Shown: piece by piece, positions 1 to 20,310 of the stretch
Position numbering within the stretch: position 1 is the first letter of the stretch
Layout of the letters: every line of letters begins with the position of its first letter
Source of the DNA: Antedon mediterranea
Taxonomy: Eukaryota > Animalia > Echinodermata
Reading direction: 5' to 3'
Length of the DNA: 64,000 nt
Assembly: GCF_964355755.1 (NCBI RefSeq)
Contig: NC_092670.1
Location: 4,020,201-4,084,200 of the forward strand
Made by a program: the position numbers and the translations under genes
Notes under the pieces: generated by a model
What the model was told of the DNA's origin: nothing
The model's database searches: none
The model's input: the letters and a program-made list of their open reading frames with translations, nothing else

Positions 1-496
1 GTACATTTGTGACAATTAAAAGTAAGTGTTTAAAGTAGTTAAAATACAGGTATATTTACATAAGATGCTTGAATTCAGTATTAACCATATTTGTTTTCAT
101 TTAAAATTTTAGATACGATGGTAATTAAAATGTAAAAATGAAGAATGGCAGTAAAATAAAAGATTAAAATTTTCTTGTTAAACTATCTTATTTGTGATCT
201 TATTTGTGTTCGAGTAGAGAGGCTATAAACTCAGGGGAGGAAAATGTAGTATCCTCCCTTTTCACCAAGATAAAAAGGATGAAATGAAAAAATAGGAATG
301 CAAAAGTTTGAAAGTTAGATGTATAGAATGATAGCATGCAATGATATATTTAATGAAAACCGTAAGGTTAGAGTCCATACACTGTGCAAGTCCAAGATGC
401 GATTTTGGCTCTGTGCGTATGTGAGACGCTTCATACCCTCAAAGATGTTAGTTGAAATTCCATATTATATAGAGGGAGCACTTTTTATACACAAGG

Positions 497-1020
497 CAGA
501 GCCATATATATTATATAAAGAGTTAGGACATTGTATTAAAGTCACGTGATATGCCGATCAATTTGTGTCAAACTTGTCTCCGTTAATGCAGAGTATAGGG
601 TATAGGAGCAACAAAATACAACTTTTTCTTATATTTAAAAAAATGTATTTGGACATTTTACGGTGAAATATCGACGTGCACAGAAGTACTTGCGACAAAT
701 GATAATAGCGCACGCGTGCGCTAGTACATTAAAAAGTTCAATTCAGATTTATTTTGGAACGAAACATCCCATAACTACGTCCTATTAATAACAATTATGT
801 AATATTTTCAATTCATAATGCATGTTTTGATGACTAAATAAAATAATAAAGTGTCGTGGATATATGTGTTAATATATTGAGAAGGGTATGAACAACATTA
901 CAATAATAAATGCAAATTATTACAAATGAAATGATGAACGAGTCTCTGAAATTTAATAACGTTGGTGGCGCAGTTTATGTCAAAAACACACAAAGAGCCA
1001 TATACTGTATAAAAGAGGTG
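497..1020 (+). mobile_element. Truncated CAGAGCC-TIR MITE, same family and orientation as 8330-9097
   Basis: Starts CAGAGCCATATATA..AAGAGTTA right after ACACAAGG (489-496); colinear with 8330-~8852; right end removed by a deletion. Confidence 0.85.
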
Positions 1021-1080
1021 TAAATATAATACAATGCAATAGAATAGTTCAATAGAAAATAAATAGTTTTATTAGTTTAC

Positions 1081-1617
1081 CAATGTTTTGTTGAACCCGA
1101 TTGCCATGACATTGCAATAAGTGCTCTGCTGCTGGACTATGTCTATGAAGGATTCAAATGATTAAAGCTGATAATGAAATGTAATAAAGAAAGTACAAAG
1201 CAATATGATGAAACATGGAAAGAATTCAATTTAAAAATTAACATTATCTCAACTACATACTTACATTACAACTGCAATGGTAATAAGACATTACCCCACT
1301 GCAATCGCAACTACCATATATAAATGTTATGCTAGAAAGTGGCAAGGAAATCAAATTCACATTGTTATCACACAGATAATTCTTCTCACAGCTACAATAG
1401 TCCAACTTGATTGCAATGGGAATTATTCAAATTAACAATAAGGACAATTCAAGATAGTGTATATTATATCTATTATAATAACAAATAGTAAACAGTGCTT
1501 GATAACATCAAGAATGGGCCATAAAAAAGTAAATAAAAACATACCATGTTTGCATCATGGTTGTAACTGATTATATTTTTTATAGGAATCTGGAATGAAA
1601 TAATATTTAATATCTAG
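1081..1617 (-). pseudogene. ECI1: ECI1 pseudogene copy W, middle exons (the rest lies left of the window)
   Basis: Exon ~1265-1320 reads ..IW*LRL..(fs)..CLITIAVV, donor gtaag (cf. ECI1 ELWLRLYxSxLVxxxAIN). Exon 1081-1144 reads RHSPA..ALIAMS..IGFNKT (cf. GHSPAGG..AMSCDYR..IGLNETxL), acceptor mutated to AT. Possible earlier exon 1545-1617. Paralogous to 9731-9799 and 13394-13900. Confidence 0.75.
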
Positions 1618-2199
1618 CTATGCAAAGAATAAACAAATGAATTATTTGTAAGTACGTACCAAAAAAATCACCAGTATTAACTCTAAAACTTTATGTTGGA
1701 ATTTTACTATTTATTCTCTATTTTGCATGAAGAATAGGTCTTAAATGTAGTATTGTATACAGTATATTTATTTATTGTTATTATTCAGTAATCACAACCT
1801 CAACAAGTTGATCGACTCAGTTCACTTTTTCTTGTTCAAACTTTCAAGATATTTTTCTAAGTGATAGTTGGATTGAATTTTTCTGGATAAAGTTTGTAAA
1901 GTATGCACGATCTTCTTCTTGTCTGCTTCGTAATTTATCAATTGTTTTCTTCCTCATCATGCTTATTTCTCTCGCATGGTCTAAAAAAAGATAATTAAGA
2001 ATTAAAGTACCTGTATGTTACATGTTCAAAAAGGCATTGGAGCATAAAATCTACATAATTAATATTCTAGTTCCTGCGCTGGCCTTTGTTATCTAAACAA
2101 TGAAAAGTACAATACTGCATCAAAACATTACATATCCTATAATAAAATAATATAATAATGCAATTGCTTTTATTGAATTTCAGTGTTGTGCATCGCTGA

Positions 2200-2492
2200 A
2201 CATAGTGTGACGTGGCAGTTGACATAGAAACAACTCAATAATGATCTGGTCACACAGCCACAAACAAGCAGGAAAACAGCTTTCATTATGGACACACATC
2301 ATTAACTTCTGAAAACACACAAACATCAAAAGTTCAAGGTATTTACTATAATTTATTAAATAAAATTCTCTAGTCTTTAAAATAGGATTTTTACCCATTT
2401 TTACATAAAGTTTTACTAGACTACAACTAACAAGCAGAGATCACATGACACGAAGTAGTAGATATTGGAAAAACCCATCTGGGCGTGTACAG
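2200..2492 (+). promoter_or_regulatory. Putative TRIM copy 1 promoter, non-coding exon 1 (donor GT at 2339) and intronic kappaB-like + GC/GT-box module
   Basis: Block conserved in all three units (~10235-10490, ~14930-15250): TGACGT-like site, GGAAAAC..TTTCATT Inr-like site, donor gtattt, then GGAAAAACCC (2467-2476) and GGGCGTG (2481-2487). Confidence 0.55.
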
Positions 2493-2574
2493 GAATAAGA
2501 TTTTATTTTTTAAATTTCAATAAAATGCAGACATGTCTATACATTAATTTCAGTGCAATATAATTTGTTCTTTA

Positions 2575-2935
2575 TTACCTCCGCCAAGTTTTCATCCGAA
2601 TCTGACCAAATTTGGCCACAATGATCTATATGCCCCAAAAGCTCGGACGAGGTCGATTTTGAGAGGAAAAGGTCATAGGTCAAGGTCACAACTAACAAAA
2701 AAATATTTCACTGCCTAGAGACCACAGTTTTTTTCCGATTCTCACCAAACTTAGCCACAATGATCAATGACTCATCATATAATTGTATTGACATTTTTAA
2801 GGGTTAGGGTCAAAGATCAAGGTCCACAAAAAAAAGAAATAAAAAAATAATAACAAATAAAAACCGTCAGCGGAATTGAACCAGCAATCTCAACTGCGAG
2901 AGGCTCGATACATAACCATTACACCAAACTCTCAT
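2575..2935. repeat. Interspersed repeat (ATTACCTCCGCCAAG..GGTCAAGGTCA type) plus minus-strand tRNA-derived head in the TRIM copy 1 intron
   Basis: Absent from the paralogous introns; internal duplication; 2864-2931 reverse complement has A-box TGGTGTAATGG and B-box GGTTCAATTCC. Confidence 0.55.
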
Positions 2936-3160
2936 CCACAACTTTGTAGTGTGCCTATTTACACTTTTTAAAAAATATACATATTTTCCAGGGACATTTT
3001 TTCAAGAAACAGTATACTCAATGATGGCCAACAATATTACAGAGCAAGTTACATTACTCTGTATATGTGATATAAATATATCAAATATTGTTTCACCATA
3101 GAGAGGAGGATTATAACTCTTATGGGGTGTTATTATCTTACAGGATCAACTTCTTTCAAA

Positions 3161-5269
3161 ATGGCTACAAGCAAATTAAATCAGTTTATTCAAGTTGTAG
3201 ATGAGGACTTAGTATGTGCCATTTGCCAGGAAAGGTTTCAGGATCCTAAAAGTCTCCCATGCCTACATAGCTTTTGTTTGTCATGTATAGAGAACTGGGT
3301 AAAAACAAACAACGGCAAACTAACATGTCCAATTTGTTGCAAATCATGTCCTATTCCAGATGGCGGGCTTAAGAAGCTTCCACCAAATACATTTCTAAAT
3401 AACATGTTAGAAAACATTGAACAATTTCAGAAGAAGGATAATATAAAGTGCATTTGTGGAACAACAGAACAGGCAATACACTACTGTAAAGAATGCAGAC
3501 ATTACTTGTGTTCCACATGTAGTAAGTATCACAAAATGTTGCCAATGTCAGCAACTCATACGCTACTTGCTGCAGAGGAAGTGCAATCAATGACGCCACA
3601 ACAACTTGCAGCATTAAATCCACCATTGTGTTCTTCTCACAACAAACCACTAGAGCTATACTGTACAAAATGTAAAGAACCAATATGCATGCAATGTGCC
3701 ATAATAACACATCCTGCAGTAGATCACAAACCAATTGAAATTGAGAAAGCATTTACATCTTTTAAAGAATCTGCACAACAATTGAAATCCGCAGCCCATC
3801 ATTACAAAGCTAAACTAGAAAATGGACTCAAGGACCTCACAGAGAATGCTGAAAAACTAAAAGAAAGTAAAGAAACAAGTATCAAAGATATTAAAAATCA
3901 AGTTCAAGAAACAATACAAATAATCCAGAAAAAAGGAGATGAAATGATAAAAAAAGTTGACATAATTTATGAAAATGAAAAGAAAATAAATGACATAGAA
4001 ATGGAGAAAATAAGGTCAATCACCTCTAAACTAAACACAAATGTGAGTTTCCTTAATCAGTCCCTACAGAGTGAACCAGCAACTGCTATGATGTCAAGTG
4101 AGACTGCATTGAATACACTGAAGGATCAGATGAACAATTCTAAAGAAATCAAACAAAATAACAATGGACAAATTAACTTCTTTGGAAACAAACATCAAAT
4201 TGATTTGTTAAACCAACATGATATTGGGATTGTAACTCAAATTAATGTAAAGGTACCGGAATATGTTATCGAAGGTGAAACACTTGTTGCAAAAATAAGA
4301 CAAAAACATCACGTTGGTCCTAATCAACTTACAGCAACATGGACACATTCAACAGGAGAAATCAACATTGATCTTGTTAAAGAAGATAATGAGTATGTTG
4401 TAAGAGGAGTATTTAGTACTACAGGATACTGTACATTAAATGTGTATTTCAATGGAAAAAAAATTAAACAATCACCATTTACTATCAATATAGAGAAGAA
4501 AGGACTGGTAAATGATTTTAAAGTTGACATGGTGCCTACAGGAGTAGTGAAGTGTGATGATGACTGCTTGCTGGTTTCATTTGACACAAATGAAATTTAC
4601 AAGTACAAACAATCAGAATGCATCAGCAAGATTACACTACCAGAAGGTGTGACAGTTTACAGAATGTACAAAATGAAGAATAATCACATAGCATTCAGTG
4701 ATGTAAACTGCATTCAAGTATGTGATATGAATGGCCATGTAATCAAATCAATTGGTAAAGGTGTACTGAAAGATCCACGTGGTTTTTACATAGATGAGGC
4801 AACAGATGTTATGTATGTAGCAGAATGGAACACTGAATGTGTGTTCATGTTTGACAACAATAGTGGTAAAGAACTTTTGCAGATAGGAGCAAAGAAAAAA
4901 GTAGAATATGGATACTATGATGTAACACTTACACAAACTGGGAAAGTGCTTGTAGCGGATTTGGAGAATGATCAAATTGTAATATATGATAATAAAAACA
5001 AGTCATTTAAAGTACTTATCAATAAAGGTGATGAAGATGGTATGGTGATGTGGCCAAAAGGAGTTGTAGTTGATGAGGATGATAACATCATTGTATCAAG
5101 TAAACACAAACTACAACTATTTAGCAGTGATGGAAATTTTATCAAAAGAATAGATCAGGAAAAAGATGGACTTATTAATCCACAGCAGTTATGTATCATT
5201 TCATATCACCCACGTAGAATTGCTGTAGCTAATTACACTGGCAGCAACACCAAAATATTTAATTATTAA
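3161..5269 (+). CDS. TRIM-NHL E3 ubiquitin ligase, copy 1 (RING, two B-boxes, coiled coil, filamin/Ig, NHL beta-propeller; TRIM2/3/56/71-like), single coding exon
   Basis: ORF 3122-5269; likely start MATSKL at 3161 after acceptor ttacag (3143). RING CAIC..CLHSFCLSC..CPIC; B-box1 CKEC..LC..C..H..H; B-box2 CSSH..YCTKC..C..C..H..H; filamin-like VYFNGKKIKQSPFTI; NHL repeats (PRGFYID, PKGVVVD). AATAAA downstream. Confidence 0.95.
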   Translation: MATSKLNQFIQVVDEDLVCAICQERFQDPKSLPCLHSFCLSCIENWVKTNNGKLTCPICCKSCPIPDGGLKKLPPNTFLNNMLENIEQFQKKDNIKCICGTTEQAIHYCKECRHYLCSTCSKYHKMLPMSATHTLLAAEEVQSMTPQQLAALNPPLCSSHNKPLELYCTKCKEPICMQCAIITHPAVDHKPIEIEKAFTSFKESAQQLKSAAHHYKAKLENGLKDLTENAEKLKESKETSIKDIKNQVQETIQIIQKKGDEMIKKVDIIYENEKKINDIEMEKIRSITSKLNTNVSFLNQSLQSEPATAMMSSETALNTLKDQMNNSKEIKQNNNGQINFFGNKHQIDLLNQHDIGIVTQINVKVPEYVIEGETLVAKIRQKHHVGPNQLTATWTHSTGEINIDLVKEDNEYVVRGVFSTTGYCTLNVYFNGKKIKQSPFTINIEKKGLVNDFKVDMVPTGVVKCDDDCLLVSFDTNEIYKYKQSECISKITLPEGVTVYRMYKMKNNHIAFSDVNCIQVCDMNGHVIKSIGKGVLKDPRGFYIDEATDVMYVAEWNTECVFMFDNNSGKELLQIGAKKKVEYGYYDVTLTQTGKVLVADLENDQIVIYDNKNKSFKVLINKGDEDGMVMWPKGVVVDEDDNIIVSSKHKLQLFSSDGNFIKRIDQEKDGLINPQQLCIISYHPRRIAVANYTGSNTKIFNY

Positions 5270-6836
5270 CGTTTTCCTCAAATAAATAACCGTTGTACAA
5301 AGTCAGTCATTGATTGAAAATAAAATATTAATACTTATAAAAGTAATAATAATAATAAATAAATAATTATACAAATAATAATTACAAAGTAAATTGAGTT
5401 AATTCAGTGATGAAATTATAGAGATATTATAGTGAAATATAATATGCTAACATTATATAAACTATTATTCATAATCATTGTAGTATTTTACCTTTAGGAT
5501 TTAGACATACAATGGTATTTACAATGAAAATATATTTAGAATTTAATTGAATTATTTAACTTCAAAGGTAATGACATACAGATGCCCAGCAATAATGAAT
5601 GGTATATGAGAACAAGTTGTTATTGCATTTTAGATCTTTAAGACTGTCTTTCTTTTTAAATGTAAAAACTTAATAACATTAGTTTCTAATTATTTTTATC
5701 ATCTGTGTATTTTGAGCCATTGTTCCATATGCACCTTAGCCACAGCCAACACCGCATTTCCTTCGGCTAATGTATCTACAAAATCTATTTTCAATTCTTC
5801 ATCCGATGAGTGTAACTTGCCTAGAGTAAACAATATTTAGTTTAAAAAATGTATCAATAACAATTTAAAAGAAAACAATTCTATTATATAATTTGGTGTA
5901 GGAAATACAGAAACATTTTAATATTTTTGGGCAGATTGATAGTGCTAAGACAGAGCTGTAACTGCGGCCTCACTGGCCACTTATTTGAGTTGAGATAATA
6001 CGCAAGAAAGAACACGGAAGGCTTGTATCATGCAACAATCGATATATTTTAACTAAGACCTCCAGTCTTATTCGTCGCCTGGTCTGGCATTTATGCAAAT
6101 CAACCCAGATACAACAATTACCTGATTACCTAATTGTTTCCTAGTTTACGCATACTGCCGTTAATACAAGAGCTTTAGATATTAACTAAACAAATCAGCT
6201 TCGGCTGGATGGACCACCGTCGTAAAATATTGTTGAAATAAAATTAAATAAAACTTTTAAATAAATGTGAAAAAAGCAAAGATGTTTTTTTTTGTCTTGT
6301 GTGAGTTCATCTCACGTTTATTTAAATTCTCATTTGTGAATATATTATATACATATAAGTACATTTGTGACAATTAAAAGTAAGTGTTTAAAGTAGTTAA
6401 TTTACATAATAAGATTAAGATGCTTGAATTCAGTATTAACCATATTTGTTTTCATTTAAAATTTTAGATACGATGGTAATTAAAATGTAAAGATGAAAAA
6501 TGGCAGTAAAATTCATGATTAAAATTTTCTTGTTAAACTATCTTATTTGTAGAGTAGAGAAACTATAAACTCAGGGGAGGAAAATGTAGTATCCTCCCTT
6601 TTCACCAAGATAAAAAGGATGAAATGAAAAAAGAGGAATGCAAAAGTTTTAAAGTTAGATATATAGAATGATAGCATGCAATGATATATTTAATGAAAAC
6701 CGTAAGGTTAGAGTCCATACACTGTGCAAGTCCAAGATGCGATTTTGGCTTTTTGCGTATGTGAGACGCTTCATACCCGCAAAGATGTTAGTTGAAATTC
6801 CATATTATATAGAGGGAGCACTTTTTATACACAAGG

Positions 6837-7661
6837 CAGAGCCATATATATAAAGAGTTACGACATTGAAAATTAGAAGCCATTTTTGTGTCAACGAATT
6901 CGCACACTGAGGGCGCGCGCGTCTCTTTTGTATAGCGTTTTCCTATAGTTCATGCACTATTTTTAGATTTTGTTGTCTATGAAATAACGCTTAGATTCCG
7001 TTTTTATTTTAGTAATTAATTTTATTAATGGTATTGATTTGTTAAAATAAATATATATTTTTTATAATAACAAAAAAATAAATGCTAGGGCCTACATGGA
7101 AGTTAGGATACATCAAAGAATGAACCAATACAAAAAACATACACATTCACCCCTCTTTTTATACAGTATATGGCTCTCTGTGTGTTTTTTACACAAACTG
7201 CGCCGCCAACGTTATTACCATTCAGAGACTCGTTCATCATTTCATTTGTAATAATTTGCCTTTATTATTTAAATATTGTTCATACCCTTTTCAGTATATT
7301 AACAAATATATCCACGACACTTTATTATTTTATTTAGTCATCAACGCATGCATTATGAATTGAAAATATTACATAATTGTTATTAATAGGACGTAGTTAT
7401 GGGATGTTTTGTTCCAAAATCAATCAATCGAACGTTATAATGTACTAGCGCACGCGCGCGCAAGTACTTCTGTACGCTGTGCACATCGATATTTCATCGT
7501 AAAATGTGCAATTACATTTTTTTTAATATAAGAAAAAATTGAAAGTATTTTGTTGCTCCTATACTTTACATGCATTAATATGCAGACAAGTTTGACACAT
7601 TTTGATCTGCATATCACGTGACTATAATCCAATGTCGTAACTCCTTATATATATGGCTCTG
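6837..7661 (-). mobile_element. Non-autonomous TIR element (MITE 1 of stack), hAT- or P-like, 8-bp TSD
   Basis: TIR CAGAGCCATATATATAAAGAGTTACGACATTG / CAATGTCGTAACTCCTTATATATATGGCTCTG; flanked by ACACAAGG at 6829-6836 and 7662-7669; reverse-complement relative of 8330-9097. Confidence 0.92.
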
Positions 7662-7669
7662 ACACAAGG

Positions 7670-8321
7670 CAGAGCCATATAGAGAGAGTTACGGCATTGA
7701 ATGGATTAGAAGCCGTGTTTGTGTCCAACTATTCCTATGTAGGGTATAGAGTTGAGTCTTTTGTTTTGAAAATATATAACGTTCAAAAGGCTTTAATTAT
7801 CGAATTTAATATCAAAACAATCAATTTGATTAAAGGTTTTTGTTAAAATAAAAAAAAATTATAAAGTTACTGCGAACATGATCCTTATGTATTTTCGTGT
7901 CCAGATCATGGGGAAAGTGTAAACATTTTTTTTATGAATATTTGAATCATACTGGTTATAAAAACCCATGTTGTCAAATTTCTAAAATTCATCTTTGACC
8001 TCTGACCTCAATTTGAATGTTTTGACCCATTGAAAACAAAATGATCATATCTTTGCAACGCTTAGATTAAATGAAATAATTTTAGTGTCAAATTATTTGG
8101 GAGATGCATGGCTGGAAGTATGATTTCTGGCATTGAAATTGATTGTTTTGATATTAAATTCGATATTTAAAGCCTTGTGAATGTTATACATTTTTTAATC
8201 AAATGACTCGACTCCATAACGCTACATAGGCATAGTTGGACACAAACATGGCCCGCGTGCACCACGTGACTTTCTAAAATCCGTGAACGCAAAGTCGTAA
8301 CTCTCTCTATATATGGCTCTG
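7670..8321. mobile_element. Non-autonomous TIR element (MITE 2 of stack): related TIRs, different interior
   Basis: CAGAGCCATATAGAGAGAGTTACG / CGTAACTCTCTCTATATATGGCTCTG; ACACAAGG on both sides; internal inverted arms ~7710-7830/8135-8252; core ~7915-8108 matches 23066-23246 in reverse complement. Confidence 0.92.
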
Positions 8322-8329
8322 ACACAAGG

Positions 8330-9097
8330 CAGAGCCATATATATATAAAGAGTTACGACATTGGATTAAAGTCACGTGATATGCAAATCAATTTTTGTCA
8401 AACTTGTCTCCGTTAATGCAGAGTATAGGGTATAGGAGCAACAAAATACAACTTTTTCTTATATTAAAAAAAAAACATTTTTTTGAACATTTTATGGTGA
8501 AATATCGACGTGCACAGAAGTACTTGCGGCAAAGAATAATAGCGCGCGCGTGCGCTAGTACATTATAAAGTTCGATTGATTGATTTTGGAACGAAACATC
8601 TCATAACTACGTCCTATTAATAACAATTATGTAATATTTTCAATTCATAATGCATGTTTTGATGACTAAATAAAATAATAAAGTGTCGTGGATATATGTG
8701 TTAATATATTGAGAAGGGTATGAACAACATTACAATAATAAAGGCAAATTATTACAAATGAAATGATGAACGAGTCTCTGAAATTTAATAACGTTGGCGG
8801 CGCAGTTTATGTCAAAAACACACAGAGAGCCATATACTGCATAAAAAGAGGGGTGAATTTGTATGTTTTTTTGCTTTGATGTATCCTGACTTGCATGTAG
8901 GCCCGAGCATTTATTCTTTTAGTCATTATAATATAATGTTATAATATTATTTCATAGACAACAAAATCTAATAATAATGCATGAACTACAGGAAAACGCT
9001 ATACAAACTAAACGCGCGCGCACTCAGTGTACAAATTCTTTGACACAAAAATGGCTTCTAAATTTCAATTACGTAACTCTTTATATATATGGCTCTG
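8330..9097 (+). mobile_element. Non-autonomous TIR element (MITE 3 of stack)
   Basis: CAGAGCC..GGCTCTG termini; ACACAAGG at 8322-8329 and 9098-9105. Confidence 0.92.
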
Positions 9098-9905
9098 ACA
9101 CAAGGAAGTCTTTAAAATGAGACACTTTTGCTTAGTGTTCCAGAAAGTAGAGTATTAGAACTGTAACTGTTTAAGAATTGCTATGTATATCTATGAATAT
9201 GACTATTTGTCGTATGAATATTAATGAATATTGTATATGATATATATTATACATAATAAGAACAGGCACTTGAATATATTCCATTTGTTGAGGGCTAAGT
9301 ATTTGAGCAAAGCGAAAACTTGAACACATAACTGTCATTCAACAAGTATTGTTCTTAAGACGACTTAAAAATACTATGCCATTGTTTTGTAAATAGAACA
9401 ACACTAACCTAACTGTAAAGAAATTTCCATCTGTCTGTGTCCAATCATGGTCATTACATCCATAAACCAGAATGGTGCAGCAATACCCTGCAAGACAAAT
9501 GCATATTATTTATAAAACATTGGTGGCTTATAACAAATTCAAATATGGTCCCAGAAAGTGACGCTTTTTCCGCAAGACAAAAATACAACAAGATGTGCTT
9601 TACAAACAGCTCAGGTCATGATATTGTCAACGCTACAGAACTCCACAATGGCACATTGTAATAATATCATAGTGTGAATATAATACAATGCAATATAATA
9701 GTTCAATAGAAAATAAATGAATTAGTTTACCATTGTAATGTTTTGTTGAATCCAATTGCCATGACATTGCAATAAGTGCTCTGCTGCTGGACTATGTCTC
9801 TGAAAGATTCAAACGATTAAACTGATAATGGAATGTAATGTAATTAAAGAAAGTTCAAGACAATGTGATGAAATATGGAAAGGCTTAGATTTTAAAATTA
9901 ACGTT

Positions 9906-12900
9906 ATCTTCCTCTTGTCTGCTTCGTAATTTATCAATGGGTTTCTTCCTCATCATCTATTTTCTTATTTCTCTAGCATCGTCTGAAAGGGAAAAAAAAA
10001 AATTAATTCAGCGTTAAAAGTATAATTATTACAATTTCAAAAAGCATTGAAGCATAAATTAATAAAATATTTACACACATCTACATAATATTCTGTATTT
10101 TAGTTCCTGCACTGGCTTTTGTTCTCTAAACATTATGAAGTACAATACTGTTTACCAAAACATAAAATATCCAATACTAAAGTAACGAATAGTTTGTATT
10201 GAAGTTTGATGTTCTACATCACTGATTTTGAAATCGTAATGACGTGACGATTTGGAATACAAACAGCTGAATAATGATCACACGTACGTACACACAAACA
10301 ACGAGGAAAACCAGCTTTTGTTTCATTACTGGAAAACATACTAACTTCTAAAAGCTCGCCAACACCAATGGTATTTACATTTTATTTATTAAATGATTGC
10401 TTAAAAATATTCTCTTTAAAATAGGAATGTTACATAAATATTGTATACTCCATGACAAGTGATCGGAAAACCCCATATGGGTGTGTACAGTTATACGTTT
10501 TTTTAAATCAATAAATTTCAATAATGCAGTATATGTCAATATTCATTTTGATGGTAATTAGTTTAAACTAATACCAGCATATAATGTGTCCTCCATATCA
10601 TGTGACACTTTGGCATTTTAATTTGCTTTCATATTCATAAAAACAGTATTCAATGATAGAAAAAAAAACTTAAATTATATGTGACTTCTTAGTCATTGTT
10701 TAATACACCATAAATTTCAATAATGCAATAATGTCTATTATAATGCCAATATTCATTTTGATGGCAAACTACAGTATTGCCAGTATGTGTCCTCCATATC
10801 ATGTGTTGCACTGTTTCCACTTTGTAACTAATTGAAGGACTCTTTGGCATCATAATTTGCTTTCATATTCATAACAGTATTCAATGATAGACAACCATTA
10901 TTACAGAGCAATTCTGTTATATGTGACTTCTTAGTCACTGTTTAATACACCAGAGAAGGATAACATGGAGTTTTAATATCTTGCAGGTTAACTGCTTTAA
11001 AATGGCTACAAGCAAATTAAATCAGTTTTTTCAAGATGTAGATGAGGACTTAGTATGTGCCATTTGCCAGGAAAGATTTCAACATCCTAAAAGTCTTCAA
11101 TGCCTACATAGCTTTTGTTTGTCATGTTTAGAGAACTGGGTAAAAACAAATAATGGCAAACTAACATGTCCAATTTGTTGCCAATCATATCCTATTCCAG
11201 ATGGCGGGCTTAAGAAGCTTCCACCAAATACATTTCTAAATAACATGTTAGAAAACATTGAAAAGTTTCAGAAGAAAGGTAACATAAAATGTGTTTGTGG
11301 AACAAAAGAACAAGCAACACATTACTGTAAAGAATGCAGACATTACTTGTGTTTTGCATGTAGTAAACATCACAAAATGTTTCCAATAACAGCAAGTCAT
11401 ACGCTACTTGCTGCAGAGGAAGTGGAATCAATGACGCCACAACAACTTGCAGCATTAAACCCGCCGTTGTGTTCTTCTCACAACAAATCACTAGAGCTAT
11501 ACTGTACAAAATGTAAAGATCCAATATGCATCCACTGTGCAGTAAAAGAACATCAATCAGTGGACCATCATAAAACAATAGACCTTGAGAAAGCATTTAC
11601 ATCTTTTAAAGAATCTGCACAACAACTGAAATCCGCAGCCCATCACTACAAAGCTAAACTAGAAAATGGACTCAAGGACCTCACAGAGAATGCTGAAAAA
11701 CTAAAAGAAAGTAAAGAAACAAGTATCAAAGATATTAAAAATCAAGTTCAAGAAACAATACAAATAATCCAGAAAAAAGGAGATGAAATGATCAAAAAAG
11801 TTGACACAATTTATGAAAATGAAAAGAAAATTAATGATGTAGAAATGAAGAAATTAAGGTCAATCACCACTGAACTAAATGCAAATGTGAGTTTTCTTAA
11901 TCAGTTAATAAAAAGTGAACCAGCAACTGCTATGATGTCAAGTGAGATTGCATTGAATACATTGAAGGATCAAATGAATAATTCTGAAGAAATCAAACAA
12001 AATGGCAATGGACAAATTAACTTCTTTGGAAACAATCAAATTGATTTGTTAGACCAACATGGCATTGGAATTGTAACTCAAATGAATGTAAAGGTTCCTG
12101 AATGTGTCATCCAAGGTGAAACACTTGTTGCAAAAATAAAACAAAAACATCAAATTGGTCCAAATCAACTTACAGCAACATGGACACATGCAACAGGAGA
12201 AACCAACATTGATCTTGTTAAAGAAGATAATGAGTATCTTGTAAGGGGAGTATGTGAAACTCCAGGGTTTTGTATATTAAATGTGTATTTAAATGGAAGC
12301 CCAATCAAACAATCACCATTTACTATCAAAATGGAAAAGAAAGGACTGGTAAATGATTTCAAATTTGATAAAAAACCTACAGGAGTAGTAAAGTGTGATG
12401 ATTGCTTGCTGGTTTCATTTTGCACAAATGAAATTCACAAGTACAAACAATCAGGAGAACGCATCAGCAAGATTACACTACCAGAAGGTGTGAACGTTTA
12501 CAGAATGTACAAAATGAATAACAACAACATAGCATTCAGTGATGTTAACTGCATTCAAGTATGTGATATGAAAGGTCATGTGATCAAATCCATTGGTAAA
12601 GATGTATTGACAGATCCTTGTGGTATTCACATAGATGAGGCAACAAATGTTATTTATGTAGCACAAATAAACACTGAATGTGTGTTCATGTTTGACATCA
12701 ATAGTGGTAAAGAGCTGATGAAGATAGGATCACAAGAAAAGGTAAAATATGGATACTTTGATGCAACACTTACACAAACTGGAAAAGTGCTTGTGGCAGA
12801 TTGGGGAAATAGTCAAATTGTATTATATGATAATGCAGACAAGTCATTTAAAGTAATTATCAATGAAGGTGATGAAGATGGCATGGTTCTGTATCCACAA

Positions 12901-13900
12901 GGAATTGTAGTTGATGAGGATGACAACATAATTGTAGCAAGTCACCACAAACTACAACTATTCAGTAGTGATGGACATTTCATCAAAAGAATTGATCAGA
13001 AAAAAGATAGAATTAATGGTCCATTTCAGTTGTGTATCATTTCATCAAACCCACGTAGAATTGCTGTAACCAATTATGAAGATAGCAACATTAAAATATT
13101 TAACTACTAAAGTTGCCCACAATTAAATGAATTTTTCATTTAATAATGGGATTTTTACCTAAACATCATTAACATAAAGACAAATATTTTTCTACAAATA
13201 TTTCTTATGCATTTTTAGATATAGAGTATTTTTATGTACACAGAACATGGTATTTACTATGAAAAAAAGTTTAGATTGGTTGAATTCTTTAAACATCAAC
13301 AGACTGAACTTTCCAGAAATGTTATTAAAGATCAGAAAATAATTAATTAGGTCACAGAGAAATAGTATAGTTAGTATGATTTTATAAGCTTACCAATAAT
13401 GTTTGTTGAGCCTGTTGCTACCTATTTGCTATGACTCTATAGTTACACGACATTGCTAAAAGTGCTCCGTCTGCTTGACTATGTCCCTGAAAGATTCAAA
13501 TTATTTAAATAGCTGATAAAGAATGTATTGTAAGAAAGTATCACATACCTGCAATGATAACAAGATGTGACCCTACTGCAATCTCAACCACATATATATA
13601 TGTTATGCTTGAATGCACTTTTGTTATGTGACTTCTTTTATACATCTCAAGAAATTCAAATTCACATTTTCTAATTTCTCTCACAGCTTTAATGAATTAT
13701 TTAAATAAACAATAAGAAAAATCAAGGTACTGTATATTACTGTACATCTTAATATTTAAACGATAAGAAATAGAAAACAGTGCTTGATAATATCAAGAAT
13801 TGGCCATCAGCTAAAGTAAATCAACACATTTCATGTTCACACCAAATGTTGCAATTGATTATAGTTTTATAGGAATCTGGTATGAAATAAGTATCTAGCT
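9906..13900 (-). pseudogene. ECI1: ECI1 pseudogene copy Y (hosts TRIM copy 2)
   Basis: Exons ~13595-13545 (MWLRL/fs/GSHLVIIA); 13486-13394 (GHSQADGALLAMSCNYRVIANR*..TLL, AG/GT intact); truncated last exon 9982-9906 (DDAREIRK*MMRKKPIDKLRSRQEED). The GIAAPFW and GKLHSS exons were not found here. Confidence 0.85.
11002..13110 (+). CDS. TRIM-NHL E3 ubiquitin ligase, copy 2, single coding exon
   Basis: ORF 10981-13110; start MATSKL at 11002 after acceptor ttgcag (10986); same architecture as copy 1, open to ..KIFNY*. Upstream donor at 10371; GGAAAACCCC at 10465-10474. Confidence 0.95.
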   Translation: MATSKLNQFFQDVDEDLVCAICQERFQHPKSLQCLHSFCLSCLENWVKTNNGKLTCPICCQSYPIPDGGLKKLPPNTFLNNMLENIEKFQKKGNIKCVCGTKEQATHYCKECRHYLCFACSKHHKMFPITASHTLLAAEEVESMTPQQLAALNPPLCSSHNKSLELYCTKCKDPICIHCAVKEHQSVDHHKTIDLEKAFTSFKESAQQLKSAAHHYKAKLENGLKDLTENAEKLKESKETSIKDIKNQVQETIQIIQKKGDEMIKKVDTIYENEKKINDVEMKKLRSITTELNANVSFLNQLIKSEPATAMMSSEIALNTLKDQMNNSEEIKQNGNGQINFFGNNQIDLLDQHGIGIVTQMNVKVPECVIQGETLVAKIKQKHQIGPNQLTATWTHATGETNIDLVKEDNEYLVRGVCETPGFCILNVYLNGSPIKQSPFTIKMEKKGLVNDFKFDKKPTGVVKCDDCLLVSFCTNEIHKYKQSGERISKITLPEGVNVYRMYKMNNNNIAFSDVNCIQVCDMKGHVIKSIGKDVLTDPCGIHIDEATNVIYVAQINTECVFMFDINSGKELMKIGSQEKVKYGYFDATLTQTGKVLVADWGNSQIVLYDNADKSFKVIINEGDEDGMVLYPQGIVVDEDDNIIVASHHKLQLFSSDGHFIKRIDQKKDRINGPFQLCIISSNPRRIAVTNYEDSNIKIFNY

Positions 13901-13963
13901 ATGTAACACACTAAACAAAGGAAATTTGTACATCCTATCAACAAAATCAACAGTTATTATCTC

Positions 13964-14016
13964 AACAAGGCCATATATACATTGCTGCAGTCGCGTGCGA
14001 AAAATGCGACTAAAAA
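13964..14016. mobile_element. Minimal Helentron/DINE-like element (both ends only)
   Basis: AACAAGGCCATATA..GCTGCAGTCGCGTGC matches the end of 46652-47328 and is joined to GCGACTAAAAA; absent at the paralogous site ~1683. Confidence 0.6.
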
Positions 14017-14141
14017 CCTTATGTTGGAATTTTACTGTTTATTCTCTATGTTGCATGGAAAATAAGTCTTAAATGTAGTATTGTGCACTGTATTATATAA
14101 TTTGTATGTAACACCACAAGTGACACTGAACAAGGTATTTA

Positions 14142-14470
14142 TATCATATCATATCATATCATTTATTTCGCCAATATACAGAACAGAACAAAAAAACAAT
14201 ACAAAAGTAAGTCAATGAGGCCGGATAACCTAAAAGTTACAAATAAAAATAACCGTCGAGAGGCTCTCCACATCGAAATACTTACATAAAATGAATAATA
14301 CATGGATTCTATTAAAATTTAGATAAAAATATAAAATTCAGCAATGTGTTTTTATAAAAAATTGTAAATTTAAAAAGATAGAATTAAGAAAATATCTTTA
14401 AAATATACATATGTTCAGATTAAAACAGATTTGGTATGTTATACTACAAGAACAACAAAATTAATTATTT
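14142..14470 (-). mobile_element. 3' end of a LINE-like retroelement with (ATGAT)n tail
   Basis: Minus strand ends GAAATAAATGATATGATATGATATGATA; absent from the paralogous unit near 1780-1800. Confidence 0.45.
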
Positions 14471-15738
14471 CTGTCAAAAAATAAGTTGATCAAGTTCCCT
14501 TTTTTCTTTTTTCAAACTGTCAAGATATTTCCCTAGTGATATCTTTCTAGATAAAGTTTGTAAAGTGTCCAATATATTCCTCTTGTCTGCTTCGTAATTT
14601 ATCAATTGGTTTCTTCCTCATCATCTCTTTGCTTATTTCTCTGGCATCGTTTGAAAAAGAAAAAACTCTTTTTAAATTCAGAATTAACAAAGTATGTTAC
14701 AAGTTGAAAAAGGCATTGAAGCATGGATGAAATAGATTATTTACACCTGCCTAAATAACATTCTCATTCCAGTTCCTGCTGGTCTGTATTGATGTAAATA
14801 TTATAAATTATAATACTGTACCTACATAAATACCACAACTACTGTATTAATCAAATGTGTAATAATATATACTTAGTAATAAATAGCTTTTTATTGAAGT
14901 TTAGTGTTCCACATCACTGATTTTGAAATCGTCATGACTTGACAGTTTACTATACAATCAATTAAAAGATGATCTGTTAACACATAGAGTACACCAACCA
15001 CGGAGTGACTTGCACACAAAGAAAATCAGGAAAACTAAGGTTTCATTGCTGACAAATATTAACTTCAGAAACCATACCAACCGTTCAATGTATTTTACAT
15101 TTTATTTATATAACAATAATTGCTTGAAACTGTTAACTACATTAAGATTTGTACACATAGAGTTGTACTATGCAATGCCCAGCAAGCAGAAATCATTTGT
15201 TATAACAGGAAATAGTAGACATTGGAAAAACCAACTTGGGCGTGTACACTAATAGAATACAGTAGGCCTGCATGAAAATAGGATTTTATTTATCGATAAA
15301 CTTTAATAAATGAATTTATGTTTTTTGTTATGTTAAAAAAGAGAGAGAAAAAAAAGATTAGAAAAACCAACTTGGGCGTGTACACAAATAGCATAATATA
15401 GGCCTACGTGAAACTAGGATTTTATTTTAGGAACTGGCTGCCTCTACGCCTAGTCGTAAATCTGCGTTTATTTTATCGGTAAACTTTAACAAATGCATTT
15501 ATGTTTTATGTTAATATGTACACTAGGCCTAATATAATTTATCTCTATTATTATATCCTTTGTACTTATAATAATTGAATTTGTTTTATATTTAAAAACA
15601 CATTCTTCAAAAAAAGAAAATAATTATTACAATATATATGTGCCTTATAAGTCAGATATCTGGTATTGTTTATTACCAGAGGAAGATCACATGACTGTTA
15701 TGAAGTTTTACTATCTTACAGGATCAATTTGTTTTAAA

Positions 15739-17415
15739 ATGGCTACAAGCAAATTAAATCAGTTTCTTCAAGTTGTAGATGAGGACTTAGTATGTGCCAT
15801 TTGCCAGGAAAGGTTTCAGGATCCTAAAAGTCTTCAATGTCTACATAGCTTTTGTTTGTCATGTTTAGAGAACTGGATAAAAACAAACAATGACAAGCTA
15901 ACATGTCCAATGTGTTGCAAATCATATCCTATTCCAGATGGCGGGCTTAAGAAGCTTCCACCAAATACATTTCTAAATAACATGTTAGAAAACATTGACA
16001 AGTTTCAGAAGAAAGATAACATAAAATGTGTTTGTGGAGAAACAGAACAGGTAACAGATTACTGTAAAGAATGTAGACATTACTTGTGTTTTGCATGCAG
16101 TAAACATCACAAAATATTACCATTGTCTTCAGGTCATACGCTACTTGCTGCAGAGGAAGTGAAATCAATGACGCCACAACAACTTGCAGCATTAAATCCA
16201 CCATTGTGTTCTTCTCACAACAAACCACTAGAGCTATACTGTACAAAATGTAAAGAACCAATATGCATACAATGTGCCATAATAACACATCCCTCAATAG
16301 ATCATAAACCAATTGGTATTGGAAAAGCATTTGAATCATTTCAAGGATCTGCACAACATCTGAAATCCGCAGCCCATCACTACAAAGTTAAACTGGAAAA
16401 TGGACTCAAGGAGCTCACAGAGAATGCTGAAAAACTAAAAGAAAGTAAAGAATCGAGTAAAAAAGATATTAATAAACAAGTTCAAGAATCGATAAAAATA
16501 ATCCAGAAAAGGGGAGATGAATTGAAAAAAAAAGTTGACACACTTTATGAAAATGAAAGGAAAACAATTGATGTAGAAATGGAGAACATAAGGTCAATTA
16601 CTGCTGAACTAAATACAAATGTCAGTTTCCTTAAGCAGTTAATAAAGAGTGAGTTAGCAACTGCTATGATGTCAAGTGAGATTGCATTGAATACACTAAA
16701 AAAGCAATTGAATAATTCTGAAGAAATCAAGCAAAATGTCAACGGAAAAATTAGCTTTTTTTGGAAAAGTCACCTTTAGGGTCAAATCTATTATTTTAAC
16801 TGCTCCCTTGTGTTTAAAAGAGAGAAAATATTTGAAACCAGGTCGTTGCAAGGTGAACTTATCTTAAACCCGGAAATTACTTTGACCGGGAAGAATTGAA
16901 ATTGAGAGGAAAATCTAATGTTGAAATCATAAATGTTGTTAAAAAACTCTTTATAATATCTTCCTAAGATATAAATATGGAACAATAGCGTCGGCGTGCA
17001 CACTAATGTTATCAAATCTACGTTTCGCGGTACATCTCGGATAGATAAGGTAGGTATCCAAGGCGGAGATTTGTACCGAAGTTTTTGCATTGTGCTCGCC
17101 TATGTCAGAATTAACCATAATTTATATATAGATGATGATGAAGACAAATCATTCAGAGTACTTATCAATAAAGGTGATGCAGATGGTATGGTGATTTACC
17201 GACGTGGAGTTGTAGTTGATGACGATGACAACATCATTGTATCAAGTAACAGCAAACTACAACTATTCAGCAGTGATGGATGTTTTATCAAAAGAATTGA
17301 TCAGGAAGGAGATGGAATAAACATTCTAGAGCAGTTGTGTATCATTTCATCAAACCCACGTAGAATTGCTGTAACTAATTACCATGACAGCAATATTAAA
17401 ATATTCAATTATTAA
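15739..17415 (+). pseudogene. TRIM-NHL copy 3, interrupted: open RING-B1-B2-CC (15739-16779), foreign insert replacing filamin and most NHL, then terminal NHL remnant (17134-17415)
   Basis: Colinear with copies 1 and 2 up to ISFF; +1 T, then unrelated sequence ~16768-17133; homology resumes at DDEDKSFRVLINKGD..KIFNY*. Confidence 0.9.
16768..17133 (+). mobile_element. 3' portion of a Helentron/Helitron2-like element inside TRIM copy 3
   Basis: Ends AATTTATATATAGAT, the same terminus as the elements ending at 19481 and 31596; interior differs. Confidence 0.5.
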
Positions 17416-17741
17416 GTTTTTCTTGTATAAAAACTGCACATAAATATTTTTGTTAAAATATATTAGGTTATACAATTATAATAACTAGAGTGTGAGCTCT
17501 TAAATGTAGACTATGGATCTTGGAATATTAAACAGTGATTATGGTAACGTCACAGAAAGACGTTCTGGCTAATTGGGGGAGGGGGTTTGTTTTGTTTTAT
17601 TCTTAAAAATAAACCTAATCTGTCTCTCAGTATCTTAGACTGAGATGATGGATATAAAATTTGAAAGTGCCATGTTTATTGTTCAGGGGCGAGGTGAGTT
17701 CATTATAGTAATACAAAGTAAATTTAGTTTGAATTAATATG

Positions 17742-19481
17742 TACTAGATGGTACGCTCGCTTCGCTCGCGTACCATCTAGTTCAAGCCCACAGATGGTTC
17801 TCGAATACATAGTAATTTCAGCGTAAAAAAACTGGCGATTTCAAATGTACGTACGGCAGGACTATAAAACATTGTCGTTTACAGAAACAAATAAATAGAC
17901 ACAATGATTTATGTAGTCAACCAAAATTAGCACCTAGAAACTTGTCACAAAATGAGTCGAAATTTGTTATTTGGACTGATTTAAACAAACCCAATTTTGT
18001 TAAATTATTCTTTATATTTCTTTATTATCCAATCAGTAACGAAATATTTTTTTTATATAGGCCTATAAATAATATACCACTAAATAGAGTAAAACATTAC
18101 CGATTTAATACTTTATTAAAACTGTCACTGTATTATGGTCGATTGAAATAGTAAAGTACATTTAAAGACCACTAATACGTTTATATTTTTGTAATTATTA
18201 ATTAATACAAACGTTGAGAAACAACTGACAGTAATAAAGTATATATTATTATGTGTTTATAATCTAAAAGTAGGGACTACCCACACTCACAGTGATAACG
18301 TTTATTAGTATATTTGTTTATACAGTATTATATCTAACAGTACCAACACACTTTTGATTCAAATGGCGATCAAAAGTGGTTAATACCTATTTGCAGTATT
18401 GTATAGCATTACAATACTATTTCTGTTTATTCTCCAAGGGTCTATAAAGTTACCTACTTGTGTTAAACCATGGAGGTATGCAATAATTTGGAATGTTCCA
18501 TTCATTGCAAATCAATACATTTCTATAAACGTATATTAAATCTATCAAAATAGTATTTTTTAAAGAAAATCGGCCTGTCTTCAACATTATGATGCTGTAC
18601 TCGAGCTGTTCAACCGGTTTTCAGCCATTAAAAACAGTTATTGTAGGAGGAGATAGGATTTTAGAATATTCTAGTACGGCTTGTCTTCCTCAGTTTGTTG
18701 GTGATTCTATTCTCTTAGAAAAAGTTCAGCAAAGAGCCACAAAACTTGCTGTGGAAATTAAAACTCAACCATATAGTGACCGAATGAAATTTATGAAACT
18801 GCCATCATTAGCATTTCGAAGAAAGAGGTCTTGCTGCTTACAGATTTTTAGAATGATACAAAAGTATGATAATGTTAATCCGGGTGTCTTCTTTGAATTA
18901 GCACCATCTACTGTAACTAGAGGCCACAATTTTAAAATTAAAAAAGTTCATAGTAAATCGAAACACAGACAGAAATTCTTTTCAATATCTGCAGTAAATG
19001 ATTGGAATAGTTTGCCATATCATATAGTAAATGCATCCTCTATAAATAATTTTAAAACCCATCTTGAAACACACTGGAAAACCCACAACCTAAAGTTTGA
19101 GCCATATAACCAAGATGTTCAAAGAGGGACTCACGAACCTTAACAGGTTTATAGTCTAAAGGTCAAGGTAAATCAAGGTAAAGGTAAAATGCGAAGCATC
19201 CTCGTATTATTGTATGCGGGTATTTTTCACGATGGACATGTATTAGACAGTGTATAACACGATCGGAAAACACCCCTATTTGGGGCAAATCGTTGAACCT
19301 AAATTCGTTTTAATTGTCAATAACTAATTATCTGACTCAATTTAATTAGTAAACAGGGTTACATCAGGTGGTTAAAATCAGTACCGAAAGTACGAGCCAA
19401 CTTTATATACCATCGAGTAAACATTCTAGAAGTGACGCGCGATTTACCAAATTTTGCCCTTACGTAAATTTATATATAGAT
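17742..19481 (+). mobile_element. Non-autonomous Helentron/Helitron2-like element, copy 1, with nested LINE
   Basis: 5' TACTAG with 13-bp hairpin CTAGATGGTACGC/GCGTACCATCTAG; 3' TTTATATATAGAT; colinear with 30176-31596; no TSD seen. Confidence 0.75.
18658..19185 (+). mobile_element. 5'-truncated CR1/L2-group LINE (ORF2 C-terminus)
   Basis: LEKVQQRATKL..TRGHNFKIKK..FFS..VNDWNSLP..IVNASSINNFK; (AAGGT)n-like tail; absent in the sister element (empty site GATAGGAAAATGCG ~31301). Confidence 0.85.
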
Positions 19482-20310
19482 TCATAAATACGTCAATAAC
19501 TAAAATCATTATCATACAGTAATATCAAATGTTTTTTCTCTCTCAACATTACAGTACATTTTAATATCATTGTACATTCCTAGAGATGATAGTGAATAGT
19601 CATTATAATATCTCTATTACAGTAAAATAATTCATTACTTACTTTGTAAGATTCAATCGATTTACTTAAGTTTAACTATTAATACATGTTTTTTAATTAA
19701 TGCATAGTTTTAGAATTTATAAATTAAATTATAACTTCAAAGTAAGCAGAATGAACTGGCCAGCTATTTTATTTCCTGTTAAAAGTATAAGATATTTTAA
19801 CATAGATTTATTTGTAGCTGTAATGTTTCTTTTGTATGCTGTTCTTTTTGGTGGAATAAATAAACCAACAAAAATGTAGAAGAATGTGTTTGTGTTCACA
19901 CTGTTCTAGGTTTGCATATTTATAATTACAGAAGCTGGAAACAAACGAGTGAAAATAAAGCAAAACATTCCCACAATAATTTAGTTTCAAGTAACCTGGT
20001 ATTTGAGGAAATTTTCCTCAGTACTAATACTTTAGTTAATCTAAATCTGGTATTTGAGCCATTGTATATGCACCCCACCGGTAACAGATGAACCGGTGAC
20101 AGGACAGATGAAATCGGTCGCGCTTGAAATCGGTCGCGTTTTATTTTTGTAGCGAAAAAATCAACGGTGACTACTTCTTCGCATGCAGCTAAAGTGAAAT
20201 GACGTCACGTTAAAGCGGGTCGTCACAGAGTCTCATAATTATTAATGAAGCAAACTTGCCGAGAGTGTTTTCCACCACCACACACGCGACGCGAGATTTA
20301 TCGAAACCGA

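What the first reader, a model, noticed from the sequence alone, without database searches (positions are those of the whole stretch)
1081..20074. TRIM-NHL array amplified as a passenger inside tandem, decaying ECI1 host genes
Seen: the spacers between the TRIM genes are minus-strand exons of enoyl-CoA delta isomerase 1 in correct order, e.g. GHSQADGALLAMSCNYRV (13486-13394), GIAAPFW..IGHRQMEISLQL (9487-9409), GKLHSS..EQWLKI (5820-5703), DHAR..MMRKK (1980-1822, 9982-9906, 14650-14480). Each TRIM lies antisense in what corresponds to the last ECI1 intron (directly bracketed for copies 1 and 3; the penultimate exon is deleted around copy 2). Its predicted promoter is ~300-400 bp from the last-exon acceptor. 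All four ECI1 copies have stops, frameshifts, broken splice sites or lost exons, while two TRIMs are intact. Inference: an intronless TRIM, possibly a retrocopy, landed in the last intron of a housekeeping beta-oxidation gene. The host-plus-guest unit then duplicated, with selection keeping the guest and the extra hosts decaying. The ORF track shows none of this.
Basis: partly seen in the sequence, partly recalled or inferred. Interest (0 to 1): 0.85.

Follow-up and report, generated by a model that had tools for sequence, protein, structure and literature searches.

The report
TRIM array carrying dead ECI1 halves
In a feather star, three ubiquitin-ligase (TRIM) genes each sit backwards inside the last intron of a broken back half of a fat-metabolism gene (ECI1), likely because a piece of ECI1 carrying the guest was copied in tandem again and again while only the guest stayed under selection; this is a clear fossil record of a known duplication process.

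Summary
Nine minus-strand fragments are ECI1 exons in order, and all four host copies are broken or incomplete. Three plus-strand TRIM genes lie in the last intron; two are intact (702 aa), dN/dS about 0.37.

The interpretation needs three corrections. (1) Only the last four ECI1 exons (aa 152-303) occur, and no 5' half lies in the 64 kb. Units share one last-exon-to-upstream-intron junction and some lesions, so the host was likely dead on arrival rather than decaying as whole genes. (2) Retrocopy is unsupported: the crinoid family looks intronless in its coding part, each copy has a predicted 5'-UTR intron, and I found no poly(A) tract. (3) Copies are mosaics (146-bp identical tract), so unequal crossover or conversion likely drives the array.

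Public contigs confirm one internal deletion, show more unit forms, and hold a last exon with the intact C-terminus and a different 3' flank. Whether working ECI1 still holds a TRIM is untested. The arrangement looks Antedon-specific. It works like RCCX or Sdic repeats, but with a nested guest. The scan had not noted it elsewhere.

The parts
1081..1144 (-). ECI1 exon A remnant (aa 152-184), unit a; 26-bp deletion shared with A2; acceptor reads CAT
   Evidence: all 5 X1 contigs and 1 X5 contig at 1145 carry the intact acceptor letter
1146..1821 (-). spacer joining the ECI1 last exon to the intron upstream of exon A (shared unit junction)
   Evidence: colinear with 13490-14480, 17% mismatch over 503 aligned bases
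1822..1980 (-). ECI1 last exon D1; acceptor intact, 6-bp deletion, +1 frameshift; 47 of 52 aligned aa match P0001
2190..2500 (+). predicted TRIM promoter and untranslated first exon; candidate donor at 2339, conserved motif pair at 2467 and 2481; homologous blocks in all three units
   Evidence: prediction only
2580..2960 (.). high-copy repeat in the predicted 5'-UTR intron of T1
   Evidence: depth; absent from the other two units
3161..5269 (+). TRIM T1, intact 702 aa (RING, B-box, filamin-like below cut-off, NHL); predicted acceptor at 3142
5703..5820 (-). ECI1 exon C1 (aa 212-250); +1 insertion, donor reads AT instead of GT
6829..9120 (.). stack of inverted high-copy repeats in the B-C intron
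9409..9487 (-). ECI1 exon B (aa 185-211); splice sites intact, one codon deleted, 22 of 26 aa match
9731..9799 (-). ECI1 exon A2; 26-bp deletion shared with A1
9906..9982 (-). ECI1 last exon D2, 5' part only; stop codon; cut by a deletion that joins it to the intron before A2
   Evidence: the same joint (1245 to 1910 in unit-b coordinates) stands in run X1
11002..13110 (+). TRIM T2, intact 702 aa
13394..13486 (-). ECI1 exon A3; splice sites intact, 93 instead of 99 nt, in-frame stop; exons B and C deleted behind it
14480..14650 (-). ECI1 last exon D3; acceptor reads CAA, stop, frameshifting deletion
15739..16779 (+). TRIM T3 N-terminal part (346 aa, RING to coiled coil); about 780 bp of coding sequence lost behind it
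   Evidence: 312 of 314 aa identical to A. mediterranea P0038, which lacks the same part
17113..17415 (+). TRIM T3 C-terminal remnant
17741..19482 (.). very high-copy repeat inserted in the C-D intron behind T3
20047..20074 (-). 28-bp 3' remnant of ECI1 exon C (C3); donor also reads AT; joined upstream to a repeat
   Evidence: 30 of 35 bases match C1, E=9e-6 in a local pairwise search

Best explanation
Three TRIM ubiquitin-ligase genes lie antisense in the last intron of broken 3' halves of ECI1, likely because a TRIM first settled in that intron of the working gene and a segment holding only the last four exons plus the TRIM was then copied and multiplied in tandem. Shown: the nesting, the exon order, the absence of ECI1's 5' half from the window, one shared junction, lesions shared between units, purifying selection on the TRIMs, mosaic TRIM sequences. 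Inferred step 1: a member of an already expanded crinoid TRIM-NHL family moved into the intron in the Antedon lineage; RNA or DNA route cannot be told. Inferred step 2: the copied segment ran from the intron before exon A to about the ECI1 stop codon, so the host part had no promoter or start and was dead on arrival. Inferred step 3: unequal crossover and conversion, with the 2.1-kb TRIM frames as the longest homology, multiplied and shuffled the units. Inferred step 4: deletions and transposons eroded host exons where they spared the TRIM. The working ECI1 lies outside the window, likely on the same chromosome. An immune role for the TRIMs is a guess from family knowledge, untested.
For: Bracketing C-TRIM-D is direct for T1 and T3; for T2 the 3' flank is homologous to T1's up to a deletion. 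No exon for aa 1-151 by sliding tblastn or by a six-protein ECI1 profile over six frames; the 44 kb upstream hold an adhesion GPCR and an ankyrin-repeat exon instead. D-to-A spacer colinear in two units and, after a deletion, in the third. Shared lesions: A1/A2 26-bp deletion, C1/C3 donor AT, D2/D3 two amino-acid changes. Five of six exon fragments fit neutral decay over a branch of 0.09-0.12, half the TRIM dS of 0.23-0.25, so there is no sign of a dead period before the TRIMs began to diverge. dN/dS 0.37 (CI 0.28-0.51) for T1-T2. A 146-bp identical T1/T2 tract; runs of informative sites p<1e-4 and 3e-4 in two of three tests. T1-T3 group with four A. mediterranea proteins from the 41.38-Mb chromosome that also carries ECI1 (SH-aLRT 100, quick tree). 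A contig in run X5 has the last exon with P0001's exact C-terminus and a 3' flank that leaves the window at 1835.
Against: No contig links an intact last exon to the TRIM-side intron, so a TRIM in working ECI1 is not shown. The 5' 70 bases of exon D differ between units by 7-9% against 20-24% in the adjacent intron (Fisher p=0.001, 0.02, 0.0004; stretch chosen after seeing it, pairs not independent), and D1 is fresher than neutral (P=0.004-0.04, one of six tests). Pure death on arrival does not predict this; it needs later exchange with the working gene or some constraint. A simple tandem partial duplication puts the 5' exons in front of the first unit, and they are not there, so a further move or loss is needed. 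The C1/C3 shared lesion is one base and could be parallel.
Confidence: 0.7

Rival explanations
1. The TRIM never sat in the working ECI1: it inserted into an already dead 3'-half duplicate, which was then amplified.
For: The intact-looking last exon in X5 has a different 3' flank, and no contig ties it to the TRIM-side intron. None of 42 Anneissia family hits lies on that species' ECI1 scaffold of 1,012,292 bp.
Against: Exon decay is no greater than the TRIM copies' own divergence, which leaves little time for a dead host to be hit first. D1 is close to the working protein while attached to the TRIM-side intron.
Confidence: 0.15
2. Whole ECI1+TRIM genes were duplicated, worked for a while as extra enzymes, and lost their 5' halves and function later.
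For: Exon D is more conserved between units than the intron. By hand on the alignment I count about 6 replacement and 4 silent changes in 25 codons, too few to be significant.
Against: One shared D-to-A junction, no 5' exon in any of four units, lesions shared between units, and A and C exons decayed at neutral level. One early whole-gene duplication followed by one deletion is not excluded and would merge with the best explanation.
Confidence: 0.1
3. The whole array lies inside the last intron of one working ECI1 whose 5' part is far upstream and whose true last exon ends the array; the internal exons are skipped.
For: A tandem duplication leaves the original 3' flank on the last unit, as the X5 contig might show. 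Several internal splice sites are dead.
Against: No working A, B, C or 5' exons in the 44 kb upstream, where two unrelated plus-strand genes lie. The D1 and D2 acceptors are intact and would compete.
Confidence: 0.04

Closest known systems
Human RCCX module (STK19-C4-CYP21-TNX); PMC8362596, passages read
   Same: A tandem segment cut inside flanking genes, so extra units carry truncated gene pieces (STK19B is 914 bases of the 3' end; TNXA is a truncated pseudogene on the opposite strand) beside a kept gene; unequal crossover and conversion; chimeras with the working gene.
   Different: In RCCX the debris comes from two flanking genes and overlaps only 3' ends. Here both flanks are exons of one host and the kept gene is nested in its intron. 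The units here are far more diverged (dS about 0.24).
Drosophila Sdic array with AnxB10-like; PMC7475035, passages read
   Same: The repeat unit holds a kept gene, a presumed pseudogene piece of a neighbour and a transposon fragment; NAHR, conversion, copy-number change.
   Different: Sdic is a chimera made from its parents. Here the TRIM takes no coding sequence from ECI1 and lies antisense inside it.
Nested antisense genes in animals; PMC5174743, passages read
   Same: A young duplicate inserted in an intron on the opposite strand; nearly 10% of Drosophila genes are nested, 71% on opposite strands.
   Different: The passages I read do not treat tandem amplification of the nest with host exons ('tandem' occurs 0 times in the text).
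LRRTM genes nested in alpha-catenin genes; PMC3933685, abstract read
   Same: Host-guest pair duplicated together; in frogs lrrtm3 survives without its host ctnna3.
   Different: Ancient dispersed duplicates of whole, mostly working hosts; no tandem array of half-hosts.
NPIP/LCR16a core duplicon; PMC7419210, passages read
   Same: A selected core gene multiplies together with incomplete copies of neighbours (PKD1P6-NPIPP1, incomplete NOMO1).
   Different: Interspersed, flanking rather than nested, with strong positive selection; here pairwise dN/dS is below 1 in every domain.
TRIM subfamily C / class VII (TRIM2, 3, 32, 45, 56, 71); PMC3503706, passages read
   Same: RING, B-box, coiled-coil region, filamin-like and NHL domains; the paper notes rapid tandem expansions of animal TRIMs.
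   Different: These belong to a crinoid-specific expansion: 63 of 87 hits are crinoid at 35-81% identity, the other 24 are 23-31%. They are not orthologs of a named vertebrate TRIM.

Membership tests
ECI1 (mitochondrial enoyl-CoA delta isomerase) exons | sequence matches ECI1 above chance, in protein order | tested here: met
   reversed-window controls
ECI1 gene, whole and working | 5' exons (aa 1-151), open frame, intact splice sites | tested here: not met
   none of four copies
TRIM-NHL (subfamily C) | RING + B-box + NHL repeats | tested here: met
   Pfam cut-offs passed in T1 and T2; filamin hit in T1 below cut-off; T3 has RING and B-box only
Nested gene | guest wholly between two consecutive host exons | tested here: met
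   C1-T1-D1 and C3-T3-D3; T2 lies between A3 and D2 after loss of B and C
Nested gene | host is a working, transcribed gene | not testable with these tools
   no genome held; no linking contig
Retrocopy | introns of a parent gene lost | tested here: inconclusive
   coding part is one exon, but Anneissia relatives of 719 and 657 aa fit on records of 3,099 and 3,169 bp, so this looks family-wide; no parent gene structure was available; a 5'-UTR intron is predicted in all three
Retrocopy | poly(A) tract at the 3' end | tested here: not met
   longest A run 5-7 in the 450 bases after each stop; age could have erased it
Retrocopy | target-site duplication | not tested
   insertion ends cannot be defined without an empty intron
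RCCX-like tandem module with partial genes | one shared junction inside a gene, repeated head to tail | tested here: met
RCCX-like tandem module with partial genes | non-allelic exchange between units | tested here: met
   146-bp identical tract and run tests
RCCX-like tandem module with partial genes | copy-number variation between individuals | tested here: inconclusive
   further junction forms in X1 and X5; T1 and T2 have no 90% match among annotated A. mediterranea proteins while T3 does; contig depth is no copy number
RCCX-like tandem module with partial genes | intact parent gene at the edge of the array | not testable with these tools
   not in the window; the array runs off its left end

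The most novel reading that the evidence does not exclude
The TRIM-proximal 65-110 bases of the dead ECI1 last exon have been co-opted as part of the TRIM's upstream control region, so a housekeeping exon is kept in every unit by selection on its antisense guest. This would explain why that stretch is three times more conserved than the intron beside it and why 5 of 7 deletion joints stop inside it.
Probability: 0.12. Interest if true: 0.7.

Novelty: new variant of a known kind. Interest (0 to 1): 0.45.

Why it matters
It is a readable case of a nested gene escaping single-copy status: the host's exons mark unit borders, shared lesions order the duplications, and the dead exons give a local neutral clock for a young TRIM-NHL radiation. 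It also warns annotators that exon debris of a housekeeping gene can sit unseen in such arrays. It does not need a new mechanism, and the ligases' function is not addressed.

Tried and rejected
Whole genome: none held. Pfam on five short exon pieces: no hit. PDB on exon C: no ECI1 hit; one search was in the wrong frame. Expression: no RNA holder listed; run X8 covers repeats and introns like DNA. Accession adjacency as a sign that P0002 lies in ECI1 (numbers 52 apart): rejected, because T3 and the adhesion GPCR lie 12 kb apart yet their numbers are 2,149 apart. Contig depth as copy number: not used. Run X10 gave one 35-base match in 1030-2575, uninformative. The different 3' flank seen in X5 is not in the window (0 matches with 3 mismatches). 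Assembly artefact: rejected; units differ by 4-30% and the D2 deletion joint stands in run X1. Positive selection on the TRIMs: not seen; dN/dS 0.29-0.58 by domain, with intervals reaching above 1 for the filamin part and the T1-T3 C-terminus. The careful tree did not finish; the quick tree was used. No fold or complex prediction was run, as neither bears on the claim.
Full report
Setting. The window is AT-rich animal DNA. Its genes match named Antedon mediterranea (feather star) proteins closely: T3 is identical to P0038 at 312 of 314 aa, and the neighbouring adhesion GPCR matches P0208 at 100% in most exons. No whole genome is held.

Observation. The plus strand carries three TRIM genes. T1 (3161-5269) and T2 (11002-13110) are open 702-aa frames with RING, B-box and NHL hits above Pfam's cut-offs. 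T3 is open for 346 aa, then lacks about 780 bp of coding sequence, with a repeat in its place and a C-terminal remnant at 17113-17415. The minus strand carries ECI1 exons. Two of three in-frame pieces hit solved ECI1 structures first (one search missed). A. mediterranea ECI1 (P0001) aligns at six places with E from 4e-21 to 2e-6, against 0.35 for the best hit in the reversed window. I call the last four exons A (aa 152-184), B (185-211), C (212-250) and D (251-303). Read 5' to 3' on the minus strand the order is C3 remnant, T3, D3, A3, T2, D2, A2, B, C1, T1, D1, A1, then the window's end. That is four units of A-B-C-[TRIM]-D, each incomplete. Every exon except B has a stop, a frameshift, a truncation or a dead splice site; B has an in-frame codon deletion.

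Nesting. T1 and T3 are bracketed by C and D. The stretch behind the TRIM stop is homologous in all three units: T1-T2 blastn E=7e-8; T1-T3 local score 112 against a shuffle maximum of 99, which is weak but backed by the C3 remnant. The stretch between D and the TRIM start is homologous too. T2 is therefore in the same intron, with B and C deleted.

The hosts are halves. Sliding tblastn of P0001 and a profile of six ECI1 proteins found nothing for aa 1-151 above the reversed controls in 64 kb. The 44 kb upstream of the first unit hold an adhesion GPCR and an ankyrin-repeat exon on the other strand. D is followed by one spacer and then A. This spacer is colinear in two units (17% mismatch) and shortened by a deletion in the third, so the junction arose once. 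Lesions are shared across units: A1 and A2 lack the same 26 bp, C1 and C3 both read AT at the donor, and D2 and D3 share two replacements. Units were thus copied from already broken units. TRIM dS is 0.23-0.25 and the D-side intron differs by 0.24-0.29 after correction. Simulated neutral decay over half of that fits five of six fragments; D1 is fresher (5 changes in 52 aa, P=0.004 at 0.12 and 0.04 at 0.09).

The guest is selected and shuffled. Pairwise dN/dS is 0.37 (0.28-0.51) for T1-T2 and 0.37-0.39 for the T3 N-terminal part; no domain exceeds 0.58. T1 and T2 share an identical 146-bp tract (3803 and 11647), and informative sites run in blocks (p<1e-4 and 3e-4 for two of three patterns, 0.41 for the third). 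T1 is 93-100% identical to P0003 over its first 200 columns, then 100% to T2 over the next 50. This is the pattern of conversion or unequal crossover (inference).

Family context. Of 87 hits to T2, 63 are crinoid (21 A. mediterranea, 42 Anneissia japonica); the rest are 23-31% identical. In a quick tree of the N-terminal 345 columns (68 rows; P0056, P0064 and P0069-P0088 left out by me, P0062 dropped for length; careful search unfinished), T1-T3 group with P0002, P0003, P0005 and P0038 at SH-aLRT 100. All four lie on the 41,379,608-bp record that also carries ECI1. Three of them are 76-85% identical to T1 and T2 and are not in the window, so the clade likely has at least six members. Anneissia ECI1 lies on a 1,012,292-bp scaffold; none of the 42 Anneissia hits does. 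This suggests an Antedon-lineage insertion, but the search saw only cluster representatives of 386-1229 aa.

Public contigs (window 1030-2575, three runs). X1 holds the D2-type deletion joint, so that unit is no assembly artefact. It also holds three further joints into D (1407-1917, 1756-1880, 1772-1880). Listed pieces of X5, coded as another organism, cover A, most of the spacer (gap 1345-1403 among the pieces shown; 66 were not shown) and a joint into D. One 502-bp X5 contig follows D from 1946 to 1835, is one base shorter than D1 there, and then leaves the window. Read by hand, it ends in the same residues as P0001 and a stop. X1 has a contig with the same variant at 1867 and the same distance to its laid end. 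This flank is not in the window. It is likely the working last exon, which puts the unit's right border near the stop codon. No listed contig joins an intact D to the TRIM-side intron.

Retrocopy? The coding part is one exon, but Anneissia relatives of 719 and 657 aa fit on records of about 3.1 kb, so this looks like a family trait. No poly(A) tract remains. The route of entry is open; an earlier scan note on exon transport by rolling-circle elements in this genome (e1-10650439, not tested here) keeps a DNA route plausible.

Unexplained. The first 70 bases of D differ by 7-9% between units, against 20-24% in the adjacent intron and 18-20% for A exons; three-way identity is 33-37 of 40 there and 14-28 of 40 beyond. 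Five of seven joints stop inside D. Exchange with the working gene is the simplest cause; co-option as TRIM control sequence is the bold one. The stretch was chosen after seeing it, and joints are easier to detect where copies are alike.

Comparison and verdict. Nested antisense genes are common (PMC5174743, passages). Repeat units with truncated passengers are known from RCCX (PMC8362596, passages), Sdic (PMC7475035, passages) and NPIP (PMC7419210, passages). A guest outliving its host is known from LRRTM3 (PMC3933685, abstract). Tandem TRIM expansion is noted in PMC3503706 (passages). Seven searches (listings only) showed no paper on this locus or on a nested guest amplified with half-hosts; the library lacks most subscription journals, and no supplements were read. 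The scan's own index showed other TRIM fusions in this genome but not this arrangement. The feature is real and well preserved, and is built from known processes: a new variant of a known kind, interest 0.45.

Noticed in passing
window 1868-1917: 5 of 7 deletion joints in runs X1 and X5 remove the 3' end of exon D and stop inside it. Joints need both sides at least 80% alike, so this may be ascertainment.
   Followed up: partly
window 2467/2481, 10465/10479, 15224/15238 and 15374: A motif pair is kept in all three predicted 5'-UTR introns, with the second motif doubled in unit d. It resembles an NF-kB site plus a KLF/Sp box; these labels are recalled, from no call.
   Followed up: partly
window 15739-16779: T3 keeps an open RING-B-box-coiled-coil frame with dN/dS 0.37-0.39 against T1 and T2; it could be a truncated working protein or a recent loss.
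   Followed up: partly
window 3161-5269 and 11002-13110: T1 and T2 have no match of 90% or more in the protein collection, whereas T3 and the neighbouring GPCR match A. mediterranea records at about 100%. Array content may differ between individuals, or the two are unannotated.
   Followed up: partly
window 1-1080: Unit a is a young copy of unit b (4% mismatch over 469 bases) that lost exon B by a deletion joining about 8858 to 9675; a further exon C and TRIM would be expected just left of the window.
   Followed up: partly
window 29038-38967 +: Adhesion GPCR with HYR, EGF-like, GPS-like and 7TM exons, matching P0208.
   Followed up: partly
window 45413-45733 +: Exon of an ankyrin-repeat gene, recognised by eye from the translation.
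   Followed up: no
P0007 (A. mediterranea, same chromosome): Nearest relative of the clade (support 80); its N-terminus is 42-82% identical to T1 and T2 but NHL windows reach 83-88%, so it may be the donor locus or an exchange partner.
   Followed up: partly
window 40572-41053, 48916-49542: A tandem repeat of about 33 bases, and a decayed frame with a zinc-knuckle-like motif typical of retroelements (label recalled).
   Followed up: no
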